A stretch of DNA of 55,667 nucleotides from an uncultured Candidatus Saccharibacteria bacterium (GTDB lineage Bacteria; Patescibacteriota; Minisyncoccia; Phycocordibacterales; GWA1-40-21), in contig CAZSCE010000003.1 of the NCBI GenBank assembly GCA_964605355.1, positions 1 to 55,667 on the forward strand, given 5' to 3'. Made by a program: the position numbers and the translations under genes. The notes under the pieces were generated by a model. That model made no database searches. It worked only from the letters and a program-made list of their open reading frames with translations, and was not told the origin of the DNA. This document shows, piece by piece, positions 9,419-18,141 of this stretch. How positions within the stretch are numbered: position 1 is the first letter of the stretch; each line of letters starts with the position of its first letter.

Positions 9419-10027
9419 ATGAAACATCTATTTGATATCATGTATTTAATTGATTATGTTGGATTAATAGGTATTTTTGCTATTATTTTTACTGAGTCTG
9501 GTTTGTTCTTTGGCTTTTTTCTACCCGGTGACTCACTTTTGTTTACTGCTGGCTTTGTGGCTTCTCAGGGGTTGTTACCTTTCCCCGCCTTACTCACGGG
9601 CTCTATAATTTGTGCTGTTTCTGCTGGTTATATTGGTTATTGGTTTGGCCGAACGGTGGGGCATAAATTATTTGAAAAGGCAGACTCCTTATTTTTTAGG
9701 AAAAAGCATTTAGAAGACACCAAAAAGTTTTTCGAAAAATATGGTAACAAGACAGTGCTTTTGTCCCGCTTTGTGCCTATTATTAGAACTTTTGCCCCTA
9801 TTATGGCTGGTGTGGGGGAGATGAATTTTAAACATTTTTCTTTTTGGAATATATTTGGCGGGATTTTATGGCCCAGTATTATGATTACCGCCGGTTTCTA
9901 TCTAGGTCGCCTTATTCCTGGGATAGAAAATTTTTTATTACCAATAGTCCTTCTTATTGTTATTGCCTCTGTTCTTCCTGGGGTTTATGAGTGGTATAAA
10001 AGCAAGAGAATTAAAAAAGTGCTATAA
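9419..10027 (+). CDS. DedA family membrane protein
   Basis: F.ESGLFFGFFLPGDSLLFTAG, RFVPIIRTFAP. Confidence 0.93.
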   Translation: MKHLFDIMYLIDYVGLIGIFAIIFTESGLFFGFFLPGDSLLFTAGFVASQGLLPFPALLTGSIICAVSAGYIGYWFGRTVGHKLFEKADSLFFRKKHLEDTKKFFEKYGNKTVLLSRFVPIIRTFAPIMAGVGEMNFKHFSFWNIFGGILWPSIMITAGFYLGRLIPGIENFLLPIVLLIVIASVLPGVYEWYKSKRIKKVL

Positions 10028-10044
10028 TATTAGGAGATAAATTT

Positions 10045-11109
10045 ATGTCTCAGAAAGTATTATATTCAAAAACATTTAAACCACCTAAATTCCTAGAGAT
10101 GTCCTCAGTGGCGGTGGAAATACTGCCTAGTGGTATTACTTTTTTGTTGACCAAAGCCACTGAGTCCGGTTTGGTTCCAGAAATGCAGGGGTTTATTTCT
10201 TTGCCACCTGGGGCAGTAGAGCAAGGGAAAATTTTTAAGCGTGAGCCGGTGGTCAAGGCCTTGATAGAAATTAGAGAAAAGACCAAGGTTAGTTTTGCCC
10301 GGTTATCTATTCCTGAGGAGAAAACTTATATTTTTAAAACCTCCCTACCGGAGATGGCCGCTGATGAAGTCCGAGACATCATTGATTTTAAAATTGAAGA
10401 AAATGTACCTCTGTCCTCCAAAGAAGCAGTTTTTGATTACGATATTATCCCCAATGTTAAAAAGAAAAGTGGTTTAGAAGTGGTGGTGTCAGTTACACCA
10501 TTAGATTTTGTGATGGATTTACAAAGTCTTTTTGATTCCGCTGGTCTCACCCCAGTATTTTTTAGCCCGGAATCAAATAATGTGGCTAAATCTGTGGTAA
10601 AAGAGGGGAATCAGCAGGTGGTAGTAGTTGCTAATATTCGCGAATCAAACATTATTTTATCACTAGTTATTTATGGGGTGGTTTGTCAGACAGCCTCACT
10701 AAATTTTGGTAGTAGTACTTTTACAGATTTACTGGCAAAATATTTTAAAGTGACTACGGCGGAGGCGGCTAAAATTAAAAATGAAAAGTTGTATACTGAG
10801 AATTCTGATAATATGGAAATATTTTCTTATCTTATAAATACCATTTCTGCTATTAAAGATGAGATCTATAAATTTATTTCTTATTGTAATGAGCGGGAAG
10901 ACGTGACCGGAGAAGTGGATAGGATTATCTTGTGTGGCCGTGACGCCTTGATTGTGGGGATGGATAGGTATTTAGCTTTAAATTTGGATATGAGTGTCAG
11001 CGTAGCTAATGTTTGGATTAATAATTTTGAAGCAGAGAATTATGTGCCAGAAATAAACAAACTGGACTCCATGGATTTAGCTGTTCTAAACGGGTTAAGT
11101 CAATTTTAA
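10045..11109 (+). CDS. Type IV pilus assembly protein PilM-like (actin-like fold)
   Basis: G.V..G.I, EENVP....A.FDY, ILCG motifs; first gene of a pilMNO-like operon. Confidence 0.75.
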   Translation: MSQKVLYSKTFKPPKFLEMSSVAVEILPSGITFLLTKATESGLVPEMQGFISLPPGAVEQGKIFKREPVVKALIEIREKTKVSFARLSIPEEKTYIFKTSLPEMAADEVRDIIDFKIEENVPLSSKEAVFDYDIIPNVKKKSGLEVVVSVTPLDFVMDLQSLFDSAGLTPVFFSPESNNVAKSVVKEGNQQVVVVANIRESNIILSLVIYGVVCQTASLNFGSSTFTDLLAKYFKVTTAEAAKIKNEKLYTENSDNMEIFSYLINTISAIKDEIYKFISYCNEREDVTGEVDRIILCGRDALIVGMDRYLALNLDMSVSVANVWINNFEAENYVPEINKLDSMDLAVLNGLSQF

Positions 11110-11111
11110 TT

Positions 11112-11660
11112 ATGGCAAATTTAATTACTGAAAAACAAAAAAAGTTAATAAAAATTGATTATTTGATGAGACTGTTTTCACTTTCCCTCATCATGCCTTC
11201 CGCCCTGCTCGGTATTTTTTTGTTGGCTTACGTAATTCCTTATTATCTATCTATTAATAAAAAAGATCAGATCGTGGCCGGGCAGTTTACCGCCGTTCTT
11301 AATGCTGAGAACAGAGAAAATGTTGGGGAAAGTACCACTCAATTAATGGGCCGAACTACAGAGGAGATAAAGGCTCTAGAGTTTTATAATACAAAATCTT
11401 TGATGCCGTTAGATTATTTTAATAAAATTATTGGGAATAAAAATCCAAATATTAGTTTAAGTAAGATGTCAGTTTACTCAGTAAAGGTGGGGGAAATACA
11501 AATTGTTATAAGTGGAGTATCTAAAAATAGGGAAGGGTTAGTCCTCTTTATTCAAGATTTAAAGTCTAAAGCGGGGTTTGCTAGCGTTACTTCACCCATT
11601 TCTGATTTTGCCAAAAATATGGATATTTCATTTACCATAAACATTAATAGTCCTATATGA
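11112..11660 (+). CDS. PilN-like protein
   Basis: N-terminal MANL, single TM, ISG.SK.RE.L..F...L, F..V.SP.S; follows the pilM-like gene. Confidence 0.65.
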   Translation: MANLITEKQKKLIKIDYLMRLFSLSLIMPSALLGIFLLAYVIPYYLSINKKDQIVAGQFTAVLNAENRENVGESTTQLMGRTTEEIKALEFYNTKSLMPLDYFNKIIGNKNPNISLSKMSVYSVKVGEIQIVISGVSKNREGLVLFIQDLKSKAGFASVTSPISDFAKNMDISFTININSPI

Positions 11661-12208
11661 AAATAAATTTTTCCAAAAAAATATTTATAGTTTCTATTAC
11701 AATTTTTATTGTAGTTTTAGCTATGGATATGGTTTCTTCATATTTATTAATAAACAAGATTATAGATATTAATAATAAAGTAAAGCAACTAAATATTTCC
11801 TCCCAAGATAGGTTAAAACAATTATCCTTAAATGATGCTATTAGTAGTTCTGTGAAAGAAAGAGAGAAATTAACCGGTTACTTTGTGGGGCCAGGGGATC
11901 TGAATACAGTAGATTTTACTAAATCACTAGAAGATTTGGCTGATATTATGGGTGTTACTCAGAAAAAAAGCTTGGCCTATGAAGAGGTGCCTGGCTTGGC
12001 TTCAGCTGGTGCGGTTCAATCTATTAGATACAAGTTTACTGTCTCCGGCAAGTGGGCAAATGTTTATAATTTTGTTCACGCTATTGAAAATTTACCAAAA
12101 ATATCTGCTCTGGCCAGCGTATCATTTATTTATAGTGCTGGGGATAAAGCTGGTGCTGGGGTGTGGTTTGCGGATTTAGATTTTTCCGTTTTAAAACTAA
12201 AAAATTAA
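11657..12208 (+). CDS. PilO-like protein
   Basis: N-terminal TM, G.W..V..F...IENLP motif; operon position. Confidence 0.65.
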   Translation: MKINFSKKIFIVSITIFIVVLAMDMVSSYLLINKIIDINNKVKQLNISSQDRLKQLSLNDAISSSVKEREKLTGYFVGPGDLNTVDFTKSLEDLADIMGVTQKKSLAYEEVPGLASAGAVQSIRYKFTVSGKWANVYNFVHAIENLPKISALASVSFIYSAGDKAGAGVWFADLDFSVLKLKN

Positions 12209-12209
12209 T

Positions 12210-12551
12210 ATGAAAAAAATTAATTTAAAAAACCTCTTAAAAAGAAAAGCTGAGTCTATAAAATTTGGGACAACTCCCGCTTGGCCAATACATCATATTC
12301 GAGACTGGAAAATTTTAGTTTACACTTTTGCTATTGGTTTGATAGCTATTTCAATATTTTCCTGGCAAATATACCTGAGTAATGAAATTGCTGGAGGCTA
12401 TTTAAATATTCAAGATGCTAATCAGCAGGTTCCGGCCAAGGCTATAAATTTAAAAAAATTACAAGCCGATCTATTAATTTTAGAAACCAGGCAGACTGAC
12501 TATTTAAAAATTAAAGCTAATCCAGTAAAATTGGTTGACCCAAGCCTTTAA
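12210..12551 (+). CDS. Single-TM protein closing the pilMNO-like operon
   Basis: RDWK + TM helix, C-terminal VDPS; starts 1 nt after the pilO-like stop. Confidence 0.6.
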   Translation: MKKINLKNLLKRKAESIKFGTTPAWPIHHIRDWKILVYTFAIGLIAISIFSWQIYLSNEIAGGYLNIQDANQQVPAKAINLKKLQADLLILETRQTDYLKIKANPVKLVDPSL

Positions 12552-12620
12552 AACTGTTATATTCTCTCTTGTTCTTTGAATTTGGTACATAGGGTTAGAA
12601 TAGTGTGGTATAATCCTTAT

Positions 12621-12962
12621 ATGCCATACAAAGATAGGAAAAATCTCTATGCCGCACAGAAAAGACACCGTGTGAGGATAAGAGAAAAACTTTTTATATT
12701 TTTGTCTTCGAAATCTTGTTTTGATTGCGGGGAGAAGGATCCTGTGGTTTTAGATTTTGACCATCGTGAACATTCTAAAAAATTTAAAACTATTGGACGA
12801 ATGTTGTCGGGACATTATTCTTGGGTTTCTGTATTACATGAGATAGAAAAATGTGAAATAAGATGCGCAAACTGTCATAGGCGTAAGACCTATATTGAAC
12901 AAAAAAGTTGGGGTAGGGGCATATGCTCCCATAGCTTAATGGATAAAGCAGGACTCTTCTAA
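12621..12962 (+). CDS. HNH-type endonuclease (CxxC...FDH...CANCH); stop codon lies in the tRNA-Arg anticodon loop
   Basis: SCFDCGE.DPVVLDFDH...EIEKCEIRCANCHRRKT; start at ATG 12621 after TGG-TATAAT-N6. Confidence 0.85.
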   Translation: MPYKDRKNLYAAQKRHRVRIREKLFIFLSSKSCFDCGEKDPVVLDFDHREHSKKFKTIGRMLSGHYSWVSVLHEIEKCEIRCANCHRRKTYIEQKSWGRGICSHSLMDKAGLF

Positions 12963-12996
12963 GGTCTTGATGGGGGTTCGATTCCCTCTGGGGGCA
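12925..12996 (+). tRNA. tRNA-Arg(TCT)
   Basis: GCTCCCA-TA-GCTT...GGACT-CTTCTAA-GGTCT...GGGGG-TTCGATT-CCCTC-TGGGGGC-A. Confidence 0.93.
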
Positions 12997-13061
12997 CAAA
13001 AATAGAAAATATGTTAATATAATAAACAGATCACTGAACCTTTAGGGGAAGGAAGTAGTTA

Positions 13062-13406
13062 ATGAATAAGTATGCCCGACCTATAATTTGGACATTTTTT
13101 CTGGTGACGGTGCTATGCGGCTGCCAAACTACTGGTATAAAGCGCCAGGTCTATACACAAGGAGAGGTGCCGGCAGTTGGGGAATATGTGTACGTTTTTG
13201 ATGTCATTAGCTATTTTCAGTCTGGCCAAATGAAACATGTACTTGTTTGGAAAATAGCTGGTGAACAAACAGTTCGTACGGCACACCTTTTTGGTTTTTG
13301 TTTTTCAGGCCTTCAGAATTACAATAGTCAGGGTTGGTACTTAATTCAAGCTGATCCAGAAACTGAGAGACACTTCCAACCGGTAAAGATGGATAAGTTT
13401 GAATAA
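13062..13406 (+). CDS. Orphan putative lipoprotein
   Basis: Signal-like N-terminus with VLCG-C lipobox-like motif; purine-rich RBS GGAAGGAAG; hairpin plus T-run at 13436-13460. Confidence 0.55.
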   Translation: MNKYARPIIWTFFLVTVLCGCQTTGIKRQVYTQGEVPAVGEYVYVFDVISYFQSGQMKHVLVWKIAGEQTVRTAHLFGFCFSGLQNYNSQGWYLIQADPETERHFQPVKMDKFE

Positions 13407-13466
13407 TGGTTCGGGATACCATGGTAAGTTCTCCCAAGGCCGAGCATCCGCTGGCCTTTTATTTTG

Positions 13467-13539
13467 TGGGCGGTAGAGGGCTCGAACCCCTGACATCGTC
13501 AGTGTAAATGACGCGCTCTACCAACTGAGCTAACCGCCC
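13467..13539 (-). tRNA. tRNA-Val(TAC)
   Basis: GGGCGGT-TA-GCTCAGTTGGTAGAGC...CGTCA-TTTACAC-TGACG...GGTTCGAG. Confidence 0.95.
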
Positions 13540-13606
13540 ATAGGCAATAGATTAACCTAAATTTCAAGATAATGCAATTTTTCTCATTTTATGTTAGAAC
13601 TTAGGG

Positions 13607-14326
13607 ATGGAAATAGAAATCCTTTATGAAGATAAGAATCTATTGGCGGTGAATAAACCAAGCGGTCTTGTGATACATACTGATGGCCGCACTAAAGAGG
13701 AGGCCCTGACAGGCTGGATTAAGAAAAAATATCCTGAGTGTGAAGAGGTGGGAGAGCCTTTAAAAATTGGTACTGGTGAGACTATAAAAAGATGGGGAAT
13801 AGTACATAGAATTGACCGGGAGACATCCGGGGTGGTGGTTATTGCTAAAAATCAGAAAACTTATCTTTTTTTAAAAAAGCAGTTTTTGGATAGAGAGATA
13901 GAAAAGTCATATCATGCCATAGTCTATGGTGATGTGCGTTATGACGAGGGAATAATTAATTTACCTATTGGTAGAAACCAAAGTGACTTTAGAAAAAGAG
14001 CCACGGGTAAGGAGGTGCGTGGGGAGGCACGGGAGGCTATTACTCATTACAAAACTCTAGCTAGAAAAGAAAGGATTTCTCTAATTGAAGCAAACCCTAG
14101 AACAGGGCGTACCCATCAGCTCCGCGTGCATTTTGCGGATATTGGTCATGGAATTATTAGTGACCGTTTATATGGTGTCTCTAAAAAATCTCCAATTGAT
14201 ATCAAACGTTTAGCCTTGCATGCTTATGCTATAGAGTTTGAATTACCGGAAGGGAAACTAATAAAAATAATTGCGCCTTACCCACCAGATTTCCAAAAGG
14301 CGGTGAGCTTCTTTAAATTTGCCTAA
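13607..14326 (+). CDS. RluA/RluD family pseudouridine synthase
   Basis: VNKPSGL, GIVHRIDRETSG, TGRTHQLRVH, LHA. Confidence 0.95.
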   Translation: MEIEILYEDKNLLAVNKPSGLVIHTDGRTKEEALTGWIKKKYPECEEVGEPLKIGTGETIKRWGIVHRIDRETSGVVVIAKNQKTYLFLKKQFLDREIEKSYHAIVYGDVRYDEGIINLPIGRNQSDFRKRATGKEVRGEAREAITHYKTLARKERISLIEANPRTGRTHQLRVHFADIGHGIISDRLYGVSKKSPIDIKRLALHAYAIEFELPEGKLIKIIAPYPPDFQKAVSFFKFA

Positions 14327-14353
14327 ATTATTTAATTGTGCTAGATTACGGGA

Positions 14354-14737
14354 ATGAAAATTTCATCAGTAAACATTGAAGAGCGAAAGAAACTATCCCT
14401 CAAAGCTGGGGATACTGTTCGTATTCACCAAAAAATTGTAGAAGGAGACAAAAGCCGAATCCAGATTTTTGAAGGTTTGATGATTGCTCGTAAACACGGT
14501 AATGAAGCTGGTGGTACTATGACTGTGAGAAAGGTGATTGATGGAGTGGGGGTAGAGAGAATTTTCCCATTTTACTCACCAAATATTGATAAGATAGAGG
14601 TGGTCAGAAGTTCCAAGACTCGCCGAGCCAAACTATACAATGTCCGTGACAAAGCCGCCAAGGAAATCCGCCGTAAGATGAAAAATATTATTAATGCCAA
14701 GGAAGTAGTTGAGGAAGCTCCAGTTGAAACTAAATAA
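14354..14737 (+). CDS. rplS: 50S ribosomal protein L19
   Basis: [32 protein letters not shown]. Confidence 0.98.
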
Positions 14738-14739
14738 AT

Positions 14740-14779
14740 AAAAACAAAAACTCCAGTTTAAAGACTGGAGTTTTTGTTT
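14740..14779 (+). terminator. Intrinsic terminator after rplS
   Basis: AAACAAAAACTCCAGT-TTAAAG-ACTGGAGTTTTTGTTT. Confidence 0.85.
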
Positions 14780-14806
14780 GTTTTAAGCTATATTTAGCAT
14801 TCAAAT

Positions 14807-14890
14807 GCCCGGGTGGCGAAATTGGTAGACGTACTACCTTGAGGTGGTAGCGCCTTTACAGGCATGGGAGTTCAAGTCTCCCCCCGCGCA
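14807..14890 (+). tRNA. tRNA-Leu(GAG)
   Basis: GCCCGGG-TG-GCGAAATTGGTAGAC...CTACC-TTGAGGT-GGTAG, variable arm, GGGAG-TTCAAGT-CTCCC. Confidence 0.93.
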
Positions 14891-14914
14891 CAAAGAAGTG
14901 ATATAATAGATATT

Positions 14915-15475
14915 ATGTTATACACAAAAAGTGGAGATGACGGTAAAACAAGTTTGTTTCATTGTGACCAAAGAATGTCTAAAAGTTCCTTGGTAGCTGA
15001 AGCTTTGGGTTCTTTAGACGAGGCCAATTCTTTTTTGGGAGTTGTTAAGGCTAAATTAGCTGAAAGAAACATTACTTTATTTTCCGTGGGTCCGGAAAGA
15101 GCGGCGGATATTATTCAAGAGATGCAGGAAAATCTTTTTACTATTCAAGCCGAGGTGGCTGGGGCAGATAAAGATGTTAATGCGGAAAAAATAAAAGAAG
15201 TTGAAGATTTGATTTCTAGTATAGAAAAAGAAATTCCTCCTATTACTTCTTTTATAATTCCTGGTGGTTGTACAGAGTCGGCTGAATTAGATTTTGCTAG
15301 AACACTAATCAGAAGAACGGAGAGACAGGTGGTGGCGGTGGTGGAAGAGGGTATAGTCAAAGTCTCTCCAAATACTTTAGCCTATATAAACCGTTTATCC
15401 AGTCTTTTATTCGCCCTAGCTAGACTTTCCGCCCATAAAAGTGGTGTTAAGGAAAATAGCCCCAGTTACGAATAG
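14915..15475 (+). CDS. ATP:cob(I)alamin adenosyltransferase (PduO type)
   Basis: LYTKSGDDG.TSL, G.LDEANS, F.IPGG, ART..RR.ER, Y.NRLS.LLF.LAR; start at ATG 14915. Confidence 0.92.
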   Translation: MLYTKSGDDGKTSLFHCDQRMSKSSLVAEALGSLDEANSFLGVVKAKLAERNITLFSVGPERAADIIQEMQENLFTIQAEVAGADKDVNAEKIKEVEDLISSIEKEIPPITSFIIPGGCTESAELDFARTLIRRTERQVVAVVEEGIVKVSPNTLAYINRLSSLLFALARLSAHKSGVKENSPSYE

Positions 15476-15542
15476 GGAAGCACTGATATTTCTGAAATAT
15501 TCAGAAGTTGTCTTAATAACTATTTGATGATATACTTAAGGC

Positions 15543-16034
15543 ATGATTGCTAAATGCTTAAATTGTAAAATTCCTTTTTATACAAAACCATCTTGGGTAA
15601 AGAGTGGTGGTGGAAAATATTGTTCATTAAATTGTAAATACATCGCCTCAAAAGTGGGGGAGAATATCCCTTGTTTTACTTGTGGCAAAGTCGTTTATCA
15701 TCCAAAGGCTCGAATAGCCAAATCAAAGAGTAAAAAATATTTTTGTGGTAAGTCCTGCCAAACAATCTGGCGAAACTCTTACTTTATAGGTAAAAAGCAT
15801 GCAAATTATAAAGACGGCCGGTCTACCTATCGAGATGTTTTAATTAGAAATAAAATTCTGGCCGTTTGCAGATTATGTAAAACTAATGATAAACGTGTTC
15901 TTGCTGGACACCATCTAAATAAGGATAGAAGGGATAATAGGGTTGAAAATTTGGTCTGGCTGTGTCACAATTGCCATCACCTCATTCATCACTATGATAT
16001 TGAGGCAAGAAAGCTTATGGTGGCTATAGTTTAG
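15543..16034 (+). CDS. Zinc-finger repeat plus HNH endonuclease; stop codon lies in the tRNA-His D-arm
   Basis: Two CxxC...(Y/F)CxxxC modules, then CRLC...GHHLNKDRRDNRVENLVWLCHNCH. Confidence 0.87.
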   Translation: MIAKCLNCKIPFYTKPSWVKSGGGKYCSLNCKYIASKVGENIPCFTCGKVVYHPKARIAKSKSKKYFCGKSCQTIWRNSYFIGKKHANYKDGRSTYRDVLIRNKILAVCRLCKTNDKRVLAGHHLNKDRRDNRVENLVWLCHNCHHLIHHYDIEARKLMVAIV

Positions 16035-16093
16035 TGGTAAAACTCAGGTTTGTGGAACCTGTATCGAGAGTTCAATTCTCTCTAGCCACCCCA
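16019..16093 (+). tRNA. tRNA-His(GTG) with encoded G-1 and CCA
   Basis: G-GTGGCTA-TA-GTTT...CAGGT-TTGTGGA-ACCTG...GAGAG-TTCAATT-CTCTC-TAGCCAC-C-CCA. Confidence 0.94.
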
Positions 16094-16119
16094 ATTTATT
16101 TTTATGTTATTATATTGAC

Positions 16120-17148
16120 ATGAAGAGGAGGGTATTTATCATGTTTTTAATAACCATTTTATTTTCTAGTTTTCTAGGGGTATTTTGTATTTCAAAAACA
16201 GAAGCCGCGGCCTATGAGCGGGTATTTTATTTTAGAGAAGGACCGAATGCCAGGAAATCATTTTTTAGTCATCCGGGGCCAATTGATGTTTTTGCTCCGC
16301 AAAATTATATGGTGGATAATAATGGTCATTTATTAGGCACAGTCAAACCTGACTTATTAGCCTATGCTAGAAATAATAAAATAAAGGTGATGCCGCTTTT
16401 AACTAACGGCGCCTTTAATGCCACTACCAGTAAAATATTTTTAGATGACACAGTTAAGCAGGATGTCTTGATCAATAATTTAGTTTTAGAGGCTAAAAGT
16501 TTTCAATATATTGGTTGGCAAATTGATTTTGAACAAATGGAGCTCTCTTATCGTGATGTTTTTTCTAGGTTTATTGAACGTGCGTATGTGGTATTTCAAA
16601 AAAATAATTTAAAATTAAGTGTAGCGGTAATTGCTCAGATATCAGAAAATCCTAATGACTATCCAAAGAATTTATGGCAAAGGATTATTGGGGTGTATGA
16701 TTATGCTCGGTTGGCCTCTAGCACAGATTTTATCAGTATCATGTCATATGATGACCCAAGCTCAATTGGTCCAGTGACCGGTTATGAATGGCTAAATAAA
16801 GTTATTGATTTTAGTTTAACCAAAATTCCTAAAGAGAAAGTATCTCTCGGGTTAGCTTTTTATTATTGGCAGTGGCGGGATTTAGATGGTAAAAGAACGG
16901 GGATTGGTGGGGTAGAAGGAATAAATAATGTCATAAGTAAATATAAAGTTACATATCATTATAGTACAGAAGAACAGGCCCCATATTTTCACTATTGGAG
17001 TACCAGAGATGGTAAGGGTTACACCATTTGGTATGAGAATGCCAAAAGTATTAGTAAAAAGATAGCCCTAATAAAAGAGCATCAGTTAAAAGGCTTTTCC
17101 GCGTGGGCCCTTGGCCTGGAACTGCCTAGCGTGTATACTGTAATGTAA
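16120..17148 (+). CDS. Secreted glycoside hydrolase family 18 protein
   Basis: Signal peptide, GWQIDFE catalytic DxE, IMSYDD, IWYEN..S...K, GFSAWALG.E. Confidence 0.87.
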   Translation: MKRRVFIMFLITILFSSFLGVFCISKTEAAAYERVFYFREGPNARKSFFSHPGPIDVFAPQNYMVDNNGHLLGTVKPDLLAYARNNKIKVMPLLTNGAFNATTSKIFLDDTVKQDVLINNLVLEAKSFQYIGWQIDFEQMELSYRDVFSRFIERAYVVFQKNNLKLSVAVIAQISENPNDYPKNLWQRIIGVYDYARLASSTDFISIMSYDDPSSIGPVTGYEWLNKVIDFSLTKIPKEKVSLGLAFYYWQWRDLDGKRTGIGGVEGINNVISKYKVTYHYSTEEQAPYFHYWSTRDGKGYTIWYENAKSISKKIALIKEHQLKGFSAWALGLELPSVYTVM

Positions 17149-17180
17149 GCTATACTTTATTAGTTTAATAATAACAAAAC

Positions 17181-17564
17181 ATGCAACCATTTATAAAAAA
17201 TATTGAGAAGGAGACTTTAGAAAATGAGAATTTTAGAACAGTTCTTTATACCTCACAACATGGCCAAGTGGTGGTAATGTCATTATTACCAAATGAGGAG
17301 ATTGGCATGGAGGTGCATGAGACCACAGATCAATTTTTTAGAATTGAGAGCGGGGAAGGGCAAGTAATTATTAATGGGGAGACGTTTCAAATATCTGACG
17401 GTTCTGCCGTGGTGGTGCCGGCTGGTTCAAAACATAATGTGGTAAATACTTCCGGTGATAAATCTCTAAAACTTTATACTATTTATATGCCGCCACATCA
17501 CAAAGATGGCGTGATTCATAGAAACAAAGAAGATGCGGAAAATGACACCGAGGATCACCTTTAA
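17181..17564 (+). CDS. Cupin domain protein
   Basis: EIGMEVH...DQFFRIESG.G, VPAG..HNV.N, KLYTIY.PPHH. Confidence 0.92.
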   Translation: MQPFIKNIEKETLENENFRTVLYTSQHGQVVVMSLLPNEEIGMEVHETTDQFFRIESGEGQVIINGETFQISDGSAVVVPAGSKHNVVNTSGDKSLKLYTIYMPPHHKDGVIHRNKEDAENDTEDHL

Positions 17565-17565
17565 T

Positions 17566-18141
17566 ATGAAGCCGGAAAATATTGAGATTTTAAAGCGTGG
17601 CGGGGTGGGGGTAATACCTACGGATACTATTTATGGATTGGCTTGCTCGGCTTTTTCTGTGACGGCAGTTGAGAGGATTTATAATTTAAAAGGGCGGGAT
17701 GAAAATAAACCATTGGTTATTATAATTTCTGATATTTCTGATTTAGAAAAGTTTGGGGCTAAAGTTTCTGAGGAGCAATTAAAATTTATAAAGAAATATT
17801 GGCCTGGCAAAGTTACTATTATTTTTGAAATCTCCAAAGATTTTAATTATTTAGACAAGGGTTTAGGTTTAGCTATTAGATTACCAGCGGATGAAAATAT
17901 ATTAGAATTTTTAAAACAAAGCGGCCCCCTAGCTACCTCGTCAGCCAATATTCAAGGAAAAATACCAGCTAAAAATATAGAGGAAGCGCAGAAATATTTT
18001 GGGCCGTCTACAAGCCGGGCAGGTGATAAGGTGGATTTTTATGAAGATGCAGGAGAATTGGATTCCGCCCCCTCCACTCTGGTTCGAATTTCTGGTGATA
18101 AGGTAGAAGTTTTACGTGAAGGTGTAGTGAAGATTTTATAA
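17566..18141 (+). CDS. tsaC: L-threonylcarbamoyladenylate synthase (Sua5/YrdC)
   Basis: PTDTIYGL, KGR...KPL, WPG..T, SSAN..G, PST, LREG. Confidence 0.93.
   Translation: MKPENIEILKRGGVGVIPTDTIYGLACSAFSVTAVERIYNLKGRDENKPLVIIISDISDLEKFGAKVSEEQLKFIKKYWPGKVTIIFEISKDFNYLDKGLGLAIRLPADENILEFLKQSGPLATSSANIQGKIPAKNIEEAQKYFGPSTSRAGDKVDFYEDAGELDSAPSTLVRISGDKVEVLREGVVKIL

What the first reader, a model, noticed from the sequence alone, without database searches (positions are those of the whole stretch)
12606..12996. HNH endonuclease gene that reads into tRNA-Arg(TCT) and takes its stop codon from the anticodon loop
Seen: TGG-TATAAT-N6-ATG (12606-12623) precedes a 113-aa CxxC/FDH/CANCH HNH protein. Its frame runs 38 nt into an intact tRNA-Arg (12925-12996) and stops at TAA 12960-12962 in the anticodon loop. 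I see no clear separate -10 just upstream of the tRNA. The same layout recurs 3 kb away with a different nuclease (15543-16093). Established: RNase P cuts at the tRNA 5' end, and non-stop mRNAs are handled by trans-translation. Inference: a class of free-standing, tRNA-coupled selfish endonucleases. The nuclease sits between promoter and tRNA, so it is hard to delete; tRNA maturation would cut its mRNA before the stop codon and dampen expression. This is my best candidate for an undescribed system.
Basis: partly seen in the sequence, partly recalled or inferred. Interest (0 to 1): 0.85.

Follow-up and report, generated by a model that had tools for sequence, protein, structure and literature searches.

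The report
Homing-type nuclease genes parked before tRNAs
Small HNH nuclease genes with their own promoter sit directly in front of single-copy tRNA genes of this tiny-genome bacterium and its relatives, usually ending on a stop codon inside the tRNA, and they behave like selfish homing elements that come, go and move between species.

Summary
ORF 12621-12962 (113 aa, HNH) reads 38 nt into tRNA-Arg(TCT) and stops in the anticodon loop. ORF 15543-16034, a second HNH subfamily, reads 15 nt into tRNA-His.

Across species genomes, 74 of the 80 best relatives of the first protein lie directly upstream of tRNA-Arg(TCT). In 64 of those 74 the stop codon lies in the tRNA: 47 use TAG at tRNA positions 8-10, and 11 use the same anticodon-loop TAA as here. 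The window's 38-nt form is a recent frame change, and the same change recurs in other lineages.

The cassette starts abruptly at GGGTTAGAA-N5-TGnTATAAT, 6 nt before the ATG, which suggests a leaderless mRNA. It sits between the native tRNA promoter and the tRNA.

It is sporadic: 3 of 27 loci in the family and 4 of 300 genomes in the class. A deletion-footprint allele exists in another metagenome. HNH2 plus tRNA-His is 100% identical to a congener whose flanks are about 75% identical, with a decaying gradient.

Best reading: free-standing homing endonuclease cassettes in tRNA 5' leaders, a new variant of the HNH genes known in phage tRNA clusters. The proposed damping of expression by RNase P and tmRNA is untested.

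The parts
12535..12563 (+). Native sigma-70-like promoter of tRNA-Arg(TCT), TTGACC-N17-TATATT with TG before the -10. It is embedded in the 3' end of the upstream pilus-operon gene (12210-12551). It is retained upstream of the cassette.
   Evidence: One search gives 10 of 12 matches, the only strong site in 12400-13100. The same element is found within 90 nt upstream of the tRNA in 18 of 24 HNH-less alleles of the family.
12568..12924 (+). The HNH1 cassette as an insertion/deletion unit (357 nt). It lies between the native promoter and the first base of the tRNA.
   Evidence: A DNA contig of run X5 joins 12567 to 12925 and skips these 357 nt, with 17 other letters in between. The first 11 of those letters equal the 3' end of the HNH ORF as found in G004. 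Empty alleles in G002, G003, G005 and others have 9-33 nt here.
12592..12620 (+). Conserved 5' end of the cassette. It consists of GGGTTAGAA (12592-12600), N5, the extended -10 TGGTATAAT (12606-12614), CC, and N4 before the ATG. It is probably the promoter of a leaderless mRNA. The role of GGGTTAGAA is unknown.
   Evidence: The element is present in 68 of 80 relatives. Conservation starts abruptly at GGGTTAGAA, which lies 28 nt before the start codon in 50 of them. There is no Shine-Dalgarno-like run before the ATG.
12621..12962 (+). HNH1 ORF, 113 aa. Residues 1 to about 100 are the conserved HNH protein. Residues 102-113 are encoded by the tRNA.
   Evidence: phrog_2255 matches at E 1.9e-21. 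C33, C36, H48, C82, N84, C85 and H86 are invariant in 32 sequences. dN/dS is 0.06-0.09. The model has pLDDT 85, with residues 100-113 below 50.
12925..12997 (+). tRNA-Arg(TCT), the only match of this query in the assembly. Its D-stem pair 13:22 is T:A.
   Evidence: The core (positions 8-66) is 98% identical to HNH-linked tRNA-Arg genes of distant lineages, but only 76-86% identical to those of its own family.
12960..12962 (+). Stop codon TAA of HNH1, which is U36-A37-A38 of the tRNA. TAG at 12932-12934 (U8-A9-G10) is the stop used by most relatives and is out of frame here.
   Evidence: The nearest relative, G004 (L088), uses the TAG with a 10-nt overlap.
15508..15536 (+). Promoter-like site of HNH2, TTGTCT-17-TATACT with TG. 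The -10 ends 6 nt before ATG 15543.
   Evidence: The same layout, with the -10 lying 6-8 nt before the start codon, is seen in the other HNH2 subfamilies.
15543..16034 (+). HNH2 ORF, 163 aa, with zinc-ribbon motifs followed by an HNH domain. The stop TAG at 16032-16034 lies in the D-loop of tRNA-His.
   Evidence: Relatives lie before tRNA-His, tRNA-Ser(TGA) or tRNA-Leu(TAA) in 30 of 30 hits.
16019..16093 (+). tRNA-His(GTG), including G-1 at 16019.
15450..16091 (+). Block that is 100% identical to congener G003 and covers HNH2 plus all of tRNA-His. Upstream, identity decays from 96% to 88% as far as tRNA-Leu(GAG) at 14807. The background is about 72-80%.

Best explanation
Both ORFs are free-standing HNH homing-endonuclease cassettes that live in the 5' leader of a tRNA gene.

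Each cassette carries its own extended -10 promoter placed 6 nt before the start codon, so the mRNA is probably leaderless. The cassette abuts the tRNA so tightly that the ORF usually has no stop of its own. It ends on a stop supplied by invariant tRNA nucleotides: TAG at U8-A9-G10, or TAA at U36-A37-A38.

The tRNA is transcribed through the cassette, from the cassette promoter, the retained native promoter, or both. RNase P then releases it, so the insertion does not harm the host. Leader removal plays the part that splicing plays for intron-borne homing genes.

The nuclease is inferred to cut or nick cassette-less alleles of the same tRNA gene. Repair would then copy the cassette together with part or all of the adjacent tRNA gene (co-conversion).

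Shown: the position, the conserved cassette borders, the sporadic distribution, a deletion allele, a recent interspecies transfer with a gradient, purifying selection, and a link to a particular tRNA allele. Inferred: cleavage activity and target, co-transcription, and processing by RNase P.

The overlap itself is most simply a tolerated by-product of the tight abutment.
For: Family assignment:
- PHROGs HNH families match at E 1.9e-21 and 3e-14.
- The Cys4 plus H-N-H residues are invariant.
- Phage homologues are annotated as HNH endonuclease or endonuclease VII.

Position:
- 74 of the 80 best relatives in species genomes lie directly before tRNA-Arg(TCT). Three of the other 6 are cut by contig ends.
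- All 30 HNH2 hits lie before a tRNA. Twenty-five are within 50 nt or overlapping, and 5 are the upstream member of a tandem pair.
- In the own genome, 3 of 4 HNH ORFs overlap a tRNA 5' end, and the fourth is divergent from tRNA-Thr.

Cassette borders: conservation begins at GGGTTAGAA in 68 of 80 loci. The native promoter is retained upstream.

Sporadic distribution:
- 3 of 27 tRNA-Arg(TCT) loci in the family carry the gene.
- Close relatives (E below 1e-40) occur in 4 of 300 class genomes.
- G003 has HNH2 but an empty tRNA-Arg locus. G012 has an identical tRNA-His without HNH2.

Loss: a contig of run X5 lacks the 357-nt cassette but keeps an 11-nt remnant of its 3' end.

Transfer:
- There is a 100% identity island over HNH2 plus tRNA-His against flanks of about 75%, with a decaying gradient.
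- The HNH1 region is 80-86% identical to G004, while the flanks are 50-70% identical.

Target or immunity hint, from the D-stem pair 13:22 of the tRNA:
- It is A/T in 69 of 74 occupied loci.
- In the class sample, 30 of 300 genomes have the A/T form and 141 of 300 have C:G. All 4 occupied loci in that sample are A/T, and 0 of the 141 C:G genomes is occupied.
- In the family, 3 of 3 occupied loci are A/T, against 2 of 24 empty loci.

Other evidence:
- The protein is under purifying selection, with dN/dS 0.06-0.09.
- RNase P RNA is present in the genome.
- Precedent: SegB of T4 recognises a tRNA T-arm motif (abstract).
Against: - No cleavage assay exists, and the target is unknown.
- G012 carries a tRNA-His identical to the occupied allele but no cassette. 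For HNH2, therefore, immunity or target cannot lie in tRNA differences.
- 26 of the 30 class genomes with the A/T D-stem have no close HNH1. The allele is therefore not sufficient evidence of past occupation.
- How homing would work between cellular genomes is unclear, because donor and recipient DNA must meet in one cell.
- Strong purifying selection and dS of about 0.9 between the window and G004 also fit a long-kept useful gene.
- The gradient shows recombination. It does not show that a nuclease caused it.
Confidence: 0.68

Rival explanations
1. One reading: the overlap is a selected regulatory device. RNase P cleavage at the tRNA 5' end removes the stop codon, leaving a non-stop mRNA. tmRNA then tags the product. 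Nuclease output would be kept low and tied to the kinetics of tRNA processing.
For: - The stop codon lies inside the tRNA in 64 of 74 HNH1 loci, 14 of 25 HNH2-type loci and 19 of 30 tRNA-adjacent viral loci.
- The same arrangement was re-created on many different tRNAs: Arg, His, Ser and Leu, and Lys, Pro and Trp in phages.
- An unrelated protein family shows 15-nt overlaps in 13 of 30 loci.
- RNase P RNA (113.9 bits) and tmRNA (89.4 bits) are encoded in the genome.
- The tRNA-encoded tail is predicted to be disordered.
Against: - 10 of 74 HNH1 relatives have their own stop before the tRNA.
- The junction frame switches repeatedly on the tree (ov38 at least 5 times, own-stop at least 4), as expected if the position of the stop is nearly neutral.
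- Any ORF that abuts a tRNA without a stop will find one within 10-38 nt by chance of tRNA sequence.
- No RNA 5'/3' end data exist. The one RNA contig runs 13 nt past the RNase P site.
Confidence: 0.25
2. The unit that moves is a tRNA gene with its nuclease. This would be a mobile, perhaps phage-derived, tRNA gene that replaces the resident copy, with the HNH acting to secure its inheritance, as SegB does for the T4 tRNA region. On this reading it is not a nuclease cassette that merely uses the tRNA as a safe site.
For: - The 100% identity block with G003 covers the whole tRNA-His and ends at its 3' end.
- The core of the window's tRNA-Arg is 98% identical to HNH-linked tRNAs of distant lineages, but 76-86% identical to those of its own family.
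- The window's type of tRNA-His matches only 2 of 14 congeners at E below 1e-8, yet it matches several other genera at 93-95%.
- Phage homologues sit in tRNA arrays.
Against: - The nearest HNH1 protein (G004, 88%) is linked to a different tRNA-Arg body (83% in the core). Nuclease and tRNA therefore recombine apart.
- Conservation of the cassette has a sharp left border, but the tRNA alleles also occur without the gene.
Confidence: 0.3
3. The proteins are kept for a host function linked to the tRNA gene or its transcript, such as repair or gene conversion of tRNA genes, processing, or defence. On this reading they are not selfish.
For: - Purifying selection is strong, with dN/dS 0.06-0.09.
- Each subfamily stays with one tRNA species across wide phylogenetic distances.
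- Six or seven of the 26 tRNA genes in a 0.6-Mb genome carry such a neighbour.
Against: - Distribution is patchy: 4 of 300 class genomes have a close HNH1, and 24 of 27 loci in the family are empty.
- A deletion allele exists.
- Six of the 80 HNH1 loci carry an in-frame stop: L154, L161 and L162 and L094, L104 and L164.
- There is an interspecies identity island.
Confidence: 0.1
4. Chance or annotation artefact: a spurious open frame that happens to run into a tRNA.
For: Short open frames cross the 5' end of nearly every tRNA in the genome.
Against: - The frames here are 113-164 aa long.
- They belong to families with hundreds of members: 469 in species genomes.
- They carry invariant catalytic residues.
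- They show dN/dS below 0.1.
Confidence: 0.01

Closest known systems
SegB of phage T4, a free-standing GIY-YIG homing endonuclease in the tRNA gene cluster (PMC2330249; abstract read)
   Same: It is a free-standing nuclease gene among tRNA genes. Its recognition site includes a conserved tRNA motif. Homing carries neighbouring tRNA genes along. Related genomes lack the gene.
   Different: SegB is GIY-YIG, not HNH, and sits in a phage, not a cellular chromosome. No ORF-tRNA overlap is reported in the abstract. Here the host gene is a single-copy housekeeping tRNA, and the cassette lies in its leader.
HNH endonuclease genes inside tRNA arrays of mycobacteriophages, Streptomyces phages and mycobacterial tRNA clusters (PMC6582537 and PMC6409571, passages read; records)
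   Same: These belong to the same protein family: 37-47% identity to phage proteins and up to about 55% to proteins of viral contigs. They lie between tRNA genes and are read in print as homing elements. Among the best 80 viral-contig relatives, 30 have a tRNA starting within 100 nt after the ORF, and 11 of those overlap it by exactly 10 nt.
   Different: The printed accounts concern accessory tRNA arrays of phages and actinobacteria. I found no account, in the searches listed, of cassettes in the leaders of core tRNA genes of Patescibacteria, of the stop codon inside the tRNA, of the conserved leaderless promoter end, or of one subfamily per tRNA species.
Homing endonuclease genes carried by group I introns and inteins (general knowledge; review listing)
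   Same: A selfish nuclease gene is made harmless because the host's processing removes it from the mature product. Distribution is sporadic, with a cycle of gain, decay and loss.
   Different: No intron or intein is involved. Rfam finds only the tRNAs in 10000-18000. Removal would be by RNase P cleavage of a 5' leader, an ordinary host step.
tRNA punctuation of animal mitochondrial transcripts (recalled, not from a call)
   Same: mRNA ends are made by excision of an adjoining tRNA, and the reading frame and the tRNA abut or overlap.
   Different: In mitochondria, incomplete stops are completed by polyadenylation. Here the stop lies inside the tRNA and would be lost on processing. Nothing here shows that processing defines the mRNA end.

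Membership tests
HNH (beta-beta-alpha-metal) nuclease superfamily | Significant match to a curated HNH profile | tested here: inconclusive
   PHROGs HNH families match strongly: phrog_2255 at 1.9e-21 for HNH1 and phrog_1271 at 3e-14 for HNH2. Pfam stays below its cut-offs: PF01844 at 12.5 bits against 21.4, and PF13392 at 19.7 against 24.8. NCBIfam gives nothing for HNH1 and only sub-threshold domain hits for HNH2.
HNH (beta-beta-alpha-metal) nuclease superfamily | Catalytic His after the first strand, conserved Asn, metal-binding His, and in this branch a Cys4 zinc site | tested here: met
   C33, C36, H48, C82, N84, C85 and H86 are invariant in 32 sequences. HNH2 has the motif CHNCHHLIH.
HNH (beta-beta-alpha-metal) nuclease superfamily | beta-beta-alpha fold resembling solved HNH nucleases | tested here: inconclusive
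Free-standing homing endonuclease gene | Present or absent at an otherwise conserved locus in related genomes | tested here: met
   Three of 27 tRNA-Arg(TCT) loci in the family are occupied. G012 is empty and G000, G003 and G006 are occupied for tRNA-His. A deletion-footprint contig exists.
Free-standing homing endonuclease gene | Not inside an intron or intein, with its own expression signals | tested here: met
   Rfam finds only tRNAs in 10000-18000. A conserved extended -10 lies 6 nt before the start codon.
Free-standing homing endonuclease gene | Horizontal spread with co-conversion of flanking markers | tested here: met
   For HNH2, the block is 100% identical to G003 over 15450-16091, and identity decays to 88% by 14800. 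The background is 72-80%. For HNH1 the evidence is weaker: 80-86% identity against flanks of 50-70%.
Free-standing homing endonuclease gene | Site-specific cleavage of the cassette-less allele, and resistance of the occupied allele | not testable with these tools
   Only indirect evidence exists. The D-stem 13:22 pair is A/T in 69 of 74 occupied loci, against 30 A/T and 141 C:G among 300 class genomes. For tRNA-His, the empty allele of G012 is identical to the occupied allele.
Bona fide tRNA gene | Covariance-model score above the gathering threshold, a cloverleaf structure, and being the only copy of that anticodon found | tested here: met
   Rfam RF00005 scores 65.5 and 67.5 bits against a cut-off of 29. 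ARAGORN also calls both tRNAs. There is one match for each query in the own genome.
Non-stop mRNA / trans-translation control | Co-transcription of ORF and tRNA, RNase P cleavage upstream of the stop, and tmRNA tagging | not testable with these tools
   The components are present. One RNA-library contig covers 12672-12937. It extends only 13 nt into the tRNA, which is under the 31 nt needed to count as bridging.

The most novel reading that the evidence does not exclude
The 5' leader of a tRNA gene is a third kind of 'silent niche' for homing nucleases, beside introns and inteins. RNase P does the excision.

In Patescibacteria this niche is filled on a large scale by at least two unrelated protein families, each subfamily bound to one tRNA species. 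In this 0.6-Mb genome they occupy 6-7 of the 26 tRNA genes found.

The stop codon borrowed from invariant tRNA nucleotides would make nuclease synthesis depend on the race between translation and tRNA processing, so that processed transcripts become non-stop and are tagged by tmRNA. The elements would also drive interspecies replacement of core tRNA genes.
Probability: 0.3. Interest if true: 0.8.

Novelty: new variant of a known kind. Interest (0 to 1): 0.62.

Why it matters
If the reading holds, core tRNA genes of ultra-small bacteria are routinely colonised and exchanged between species by nuclease cassettes. This would bear on several points:
- how tRNA genes evolve in these lineages, including odd D-stems and T-loops next to the cassettes;
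- how automatic annotation treats ORF-tRNA overlaps, which are usually trimmed or dropped;
- the general rules for where selfish nucleases can survive in very compact genomes.

It also offers many natural pairs of nuclease and tRNA-gene target for specificity studies. It gives a simple test bed for whether RNase P processing and trans-translation set the level of a protein encoded upstream of a tRNA.

A second family, with no known fold match, occupies the same position and deserves its own study.

Tried and rejected
- **Pfam and NCBIfam for HNH1:** nothing reached the cut-offs. The HNH assignment rests on PHROGs and on the motif.
- **Solved structures by sequence:** no relatives were found.
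- **Foldseek for HNH1:** the top hits are HNH nucleases but are not significant.
- **Hairpin idea for GGGTTA...TAATCC at the cassette's 5' end:** 96% of cells pair in 49 in-register sequences, but the pairs hardly vary, so there is no covariation either way. The motif is left unexplained.
- **Promoter inside the ORF:** none was found in HNH1. In HNH2, TTGCCA-16-TATGAT at 15971-15998 lies 22 nt before tRNA-His, but the scan found 7 sites against 4.3 +/- 2.1 expected, so it carries no weight.
- **Family-2 protein (231 aa), suspected LAGLIDADG from a motif seen by eye:**
  - There is no Pfam hit beyond an N-terminal HTH and no PDB sequence hit.
  - The model has pLDDT 83.6.
  - The Foldseek best E is 5e-3, to unrelated MotB-like domains, with TM 0.2-0.3.
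  - The Atlas returns only 'hypothetical' clusters.
  - The LAGLIDADG idea is not supported.
- **Reads:**
  - All four runs were contigs, so no transcript ends or strands could be seen.
  - Lack of X5 cover over 15524-15976 and lack of X7 cover over the neighbouring genes are not evidence.
  - The X6 joint 16042 to 15527 and the X7 joint 12988 to 14806 look like other organisms' tRNAs and were set aside.
- **Prophage or integrative island reading:** rejected, because the insert is 357 nt, lies at the tRNA 5' end and has syntenic flanks.
- **Literature:** searches found no account of HNH genes in tRNA leaders of Patescibacteria. Supplements of the papers cited could not be seen and might list such genes.
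- **Rows dropped before counts:** the tree used 71 of 75 rows. L154, L161 and L162 were dropped for in-frame stops and L164 for being too short. The register test used 49 of 80. The motif count used 68 of 80.
Full report
**1. What is in the window**

The sequence shows TGGTATAAT at 12606-12614, then six bases, then ATG at 12621. The frame from this ATG stays open for 113 codons and ends at TAA 12960-12962.

ARAGORN places tRNA-Arg(TCT) at 12925-12997. Rfam places it at 12925-12996 with 65.5 bits against a cut-off of 29. The ORF therefore reads 38 nt into the tRNA. Its stop is U36-A37-A38 of the anticodon loop.

The second case is ORF 15543-16034 (163 aa), which runs 15 nt into tRNA-His at 16020-16093. 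The G before 16020 is the G-1 of tRNA-His and is present in every allele looked at.

Both proteins match phage HNH families: phrog_2255 at E 1.9e-21 and phrog_1271 at E 3e-14. Both stay under the Pfam cut-offs.

**2. The position is conserved, not accidental**

- **HNH1 in relatives.** In 61 genomes of relatives, the closer homologues of HNH1 all sit directly before a tRNA-Arg.
- **HNH1 in species genomes.** A scan with a six-sequence alignment found 469 relatives.
  - Of the best 80 loci, 74 have tRNA-Arg(TCT) as the next feature on the same strand.
  - Three of the other six end at a contig edge.
  - The remaining three are from Acidobacteriota and have a tRNA-Met upstream instead.
- **Where HNH1 relatives stop.** In 64 of the 74, the stop codon lies wholly or partly in the tRNA.
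  - 47 use TAG at tRNA positions 8-10. ARAGORN scores these as an overlap of 10 nt, or 11 nt in two cases.
  - 11 use the same anticodon-loop TAA as the window.
  - The other 6 overlap by 15 nt (2), 24 nt (1), 197 nt (1) or 1 nt (2).
  - 10 have a stop of their own before the tRNA.
- **HNH2.** All 30 hits in relatives precede a tRNA on the same strand: His, Ser(TGA) or Leu(TAA). Twenty-five are within 50 nt or overlapping. Five are the upstream member of a tandem HNH pair before tRNA-His.
- **Own assembly.** It has 26 tRNAs and four ORFs with an HNH motif. Three of the four overlap a tRNA 5' end (Arg-TCT, His, Leu-TAA). The fourth is divergent from tRNA-Thr, about 110 nt away.

**3. The window's 38-nt overlap is derived but recurrent**

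The nearest protein is from G004 (88% identical) and ends on the TAG with a 10-nt overlap. The window has four bases fewer just before the tRNA, which shifts the frame.

On a tree of 71 proteins, the window is sister to G004 (support 100/97). The 38-nt state needs nine changes, at least five of them forced by well-supported branches. The own-stop state needs at least four.

The junction frame is therefore labile, and whichever frame arises is caught by a stop in the tRNA. The tRNA-encoded tail (residues 100-113) is predicted to be disordered.

**4. Anatomy of the cassette**

In 68 of the 80 loci, sequence conservation starts abruptly at GGGTTAGAA. This motif lies 28 nt before the start codon in 50 of them. 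It is followed by N5, TGnTATAAT, CC and N4. Nothing upstream of it is conserved.

An extended -10 ending six bases before the ATG, with no Shine-Dalgarno run, suggests a leaderless mRNA. The same layout is seen for HNH2 (TATACT ending at 15536, ATG at 15543) and for its Ser and tandem-His subfamilies.

Empty alleles of tRNA-Arg(TCT) in the family carry TTGACC-N17-TATATT at the end of the upstream pilus gene. The motif is found within 90 nt of the tRNA in 18 of 24 empty alleles. In 17 of them the -10 ends 9-33 nt before the tRNA, and in one it ends 61 nt before.

The window keeps this promoter at 12535-12563, and the cassette lies between it and the tRNA. For tRNA-His, the empty allele of G012 has only ten bases between the stop of the upstream gene and the tRNA. 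HNH2 is inserted there.

**5. Evidence that the cassettes come, go and move**

- **Sporadic presence.** Only 3 of 27 tRNA-Arg(TCT) loci in the family carry HNH1. In an even sample of 300 genomes of the class, close relatives (E below 1e-40) occur in four.
- **Mixed occupancy within genomes.** G003 has HNH2 but an empty tRNA-Arg locus.
- **A deletion allele.** A DNA contig of an independent lake metagenome (X5) joins 12567 to 12925 and skips the 357-nt cassette. It has 17 letters in between, and the first 11 equal the last bases of the HNH ORF as in G004. This is one contig, laid at 90% likeness, with 39 letters on the shorter side.
- **A recent transfer.** Against G003, flanking DNA is 72-80% identical. 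The stretch 15450-16091 (HNH2 and all of tRNA-His) is 100% identical. Upstream, identity falls stepwise from 96% to 88% as far as tRNA-Leu(GAG). This is the pattern expected from a recent transfer with co-conversion.
- **HNH1 versus its flanks.** The HNH1 region is 80-86% identical to G004, while the pilus genes beside it are 50-70% identical.
- **Selection and decay.** The proteins are under purifying selection, with dN/dS 0.06-0.09. Six of the 80 HNH1 loci carry an in-frame stop: L154, L161 and L162 and L094, L104 and L164.

**6. A link to a particular tRNA allele**

The tRNA-Arg(TCT) genes next to HNH1 nearly always have an A/T pair at D-stem positions 13:22. This holds in 69 of 74 occupied loci, and the other five have C:G.

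| Sample | A/T at 13:22 | C:G at 13:22 | Source |
|---|---|---|---|
| Occupied HNH1 loci (74) | 69 | 5 | |
| Class sample (300 genomes, exact patterns) | 30 | 141 | |
| Family, occupied (3) | 3 | 0 | |
| Family, empty (24) | 2 | 21 (one more is C:C) | |

All four occupied loci in the class sample have the A/T form right beside the gene. None of the 141 C:G genomes has the gene there. About 129 genomes of the class sample matched neither exact pattern.

The window's tRNA core is 98% identical to HNH-linked tRNAs of distant lineages, but 76-86% identical to those of its own family. The tRNA next to the nearest nuclease (G004) is different.

This fits co-conversion of the tRNA gene, or a cleavage-resistant allele, with recombination between nuclease and tRNA. 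It does not prove either. Kin are not independent.

The tRNA-His case argues against a simple immunity allele, because G012's empty allele is identical to the occupied one.

**7. Relation to what is known**

The closest relatives outside Patescibacteria are phage proteins.
- In the phage collection, 296 records hold a match, all under 60% identity.
- Of three records looked at, two lie inside tRNA arrays. Streptomyces phage Persimmon has the gene after tRNA-Arg(tct). Mycobacterium phage Bonray has one copy 27 nt before tRNA-Glu and a second copy 6 nt before tRNA-Thr. The third record is not adjacent to a tRNA.
- Of the best 80 relatives on viral contigs, 30 have a same-strand tRNA starting within 100 nt after the ORF. 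Eleven of these overlap it by exactly 10 nt, and 47 have some tRNA within 300 nt.

In print:
- SegB of T4 is a homing endonuclease in a tRNA cluster whose site includes the T-arm motif (abstract).
- HNH genes in tRNA clusters of mycobacteriophages and mycobacteria are read as homing elements that spread tRNA genes (passages).

Six searches found no description of such cassettes in the leaders of core tRNA genes of Patescibacteria, of the stop inside the tRNA, or of the conserved promoter end. Supplements were not available. I therefore rate this as a new variant of a known kind.

**8. Mechanism, and what remains inference**

Shown:
- the position and borders of the cassette;
- the sporadic distribution and the loss allele;
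- the transfer signature;
- purifying selection and the allele link;
- the presence of RNase P RNA (113.9 bits) and tmRNA (89.4 bits) in the genome.

Inferred:
- that the proteins cut cassette-less tRNA gene alleles;
- that ORF and tRNA are co-transcribed;
- that RNase P frees the tRNA and so makes the insertion harmless.

The only transcript hint is one contig of a metatranscriptome (X7) that matches 12672-12937 without a mismatch. It runs 13 nt into the tRNA, which is too short to count as bridging, and DNA in the library cannot be excluded.

It is possible, and it would explain why so many independent junctions lack their own stop. However, the frequent frame switches and the 10 relatives with their own stop fit a tolerated by-product at least as well.

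How homing would operate between cellular genomes also remains open.

**9. Seen in passing**

A second, unrelated family has an N-terminal HTH and a C-terminal domain with no Pfam, PDB-sequence or significant fold match. It occupies the same niche.
- In the own genome it has three copies. Two overlap their tRNA by 15 nt: one before tRNA-Gln(TTG) and one before tRNA-Tyr(GTA). The third ends 50 nt before tRNA-Ile(TAT).
- It occurs in 40 of 61 genomes of relatives.
- In 24 of 30 loci it has a same-strand tRNA within 100 nt, and 13 of these overlap by 15 nt.
- More than 2,375 homologues exist, and those that carry a name are all called hypothetical.

Together, the two families neighbour 6-7 of the 26 tRNA genes found in this 0.6-Mb assembly.

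**Verdict.** The selfish, tRNA-coupled reading is supported by comparative evidence. The regulatory coupling is untested. The kind of element is known from phage tRNA clusters. Its scale, precision and location in core tRNA leaders of Patescibacteria appear to be undescribed.

Noticed in passing
G000:C1:56651-57358 (-), G000:C8:1930-2571 (-), G000:C13:5012-5662 (+); loci L171, L172, L175-L204: A second, non-HNH family of about 230 aa also sits directly before tRNA genes. It has an N-terminal HTH and a conserved LYWxEG...NSDP C-terminal domain with no known family or fold match. It overlaps tRNA-Gln and tRNA-Tyr by 15 nt, and lies 50 nt before tRNA-Ile-TAT. In relatives, 24 of 30 loci have a tRNA within 100 nt (Gln, Gly, Arg, Tyr, Ile, Trp). 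More than 2,375 homologues exist; those that carry a name are all called hypothetical.
   Followed up: partly
window 12592-12600 and the same place in 68 of 80 relatives (L088-L167): The motif GGGTTAGAA is almost invariant and marks the left end of the HNH1 cassette, 5 nt before the extended -10. It is too close to be a -35 element. It could pair with TAATCC of the -10 region, but there is no covariation to test this. It resembles the 5' half of a tRNA T-arm. Its function is unexplained.
   Followed up: partly
L057 (G010), L058 (G054), L059 (G009): tRNA-His next to tandem HNH2 genes: These tRNA-His genes have unusual T-loops (GGAGCATAACC or GGATCATACC instead of GGTTCRAnnCC). Five genomes carry two HNH2 paralogues in tandem before tRNA-His. 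This may reflect target-site escape, but it was not tested.
   Followed up: no
window 14807-14891 and 14864-15475: The listed ORF 14864-15475 starts inside tRNA-Leu(GAG). Its N-terminal stretch looks like an over-extension, and a later ATG (the M in ...IIDIMLYTKSGDDGKT) is the likelier start. This overlap is therefore probably an ORF-calling artefact, unlike the two HNH cases.
   Followed up: no
window about 16092-16220 versus G003 (L080): G003 has about 2 kb of extra DNA directly after tRNA-His that the window lacks. The 100% identity block ends exactly at the tRNA 3' end.
   Followed up: no
G000:C8:10138-10740 and L069 (G012): The HNH ORF before tRNA-Leu(TAA) stays open through the whole tRNA, an overlap of 101 nt, in two congeners. 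Relatives stop 3-5 nt before the tRNA or 6-7 nt into it.
   Followed up: no
L165-L167 (Acidobacteriota contigs): The most distant of the 80 HNH1 relatives lie about 280 nt downstream of a tRNA-Met, not upstream of a tRNA-Arg. The tRNA link may therefore extend beyond Patescibacteria in another geometry.
   Followed up: no
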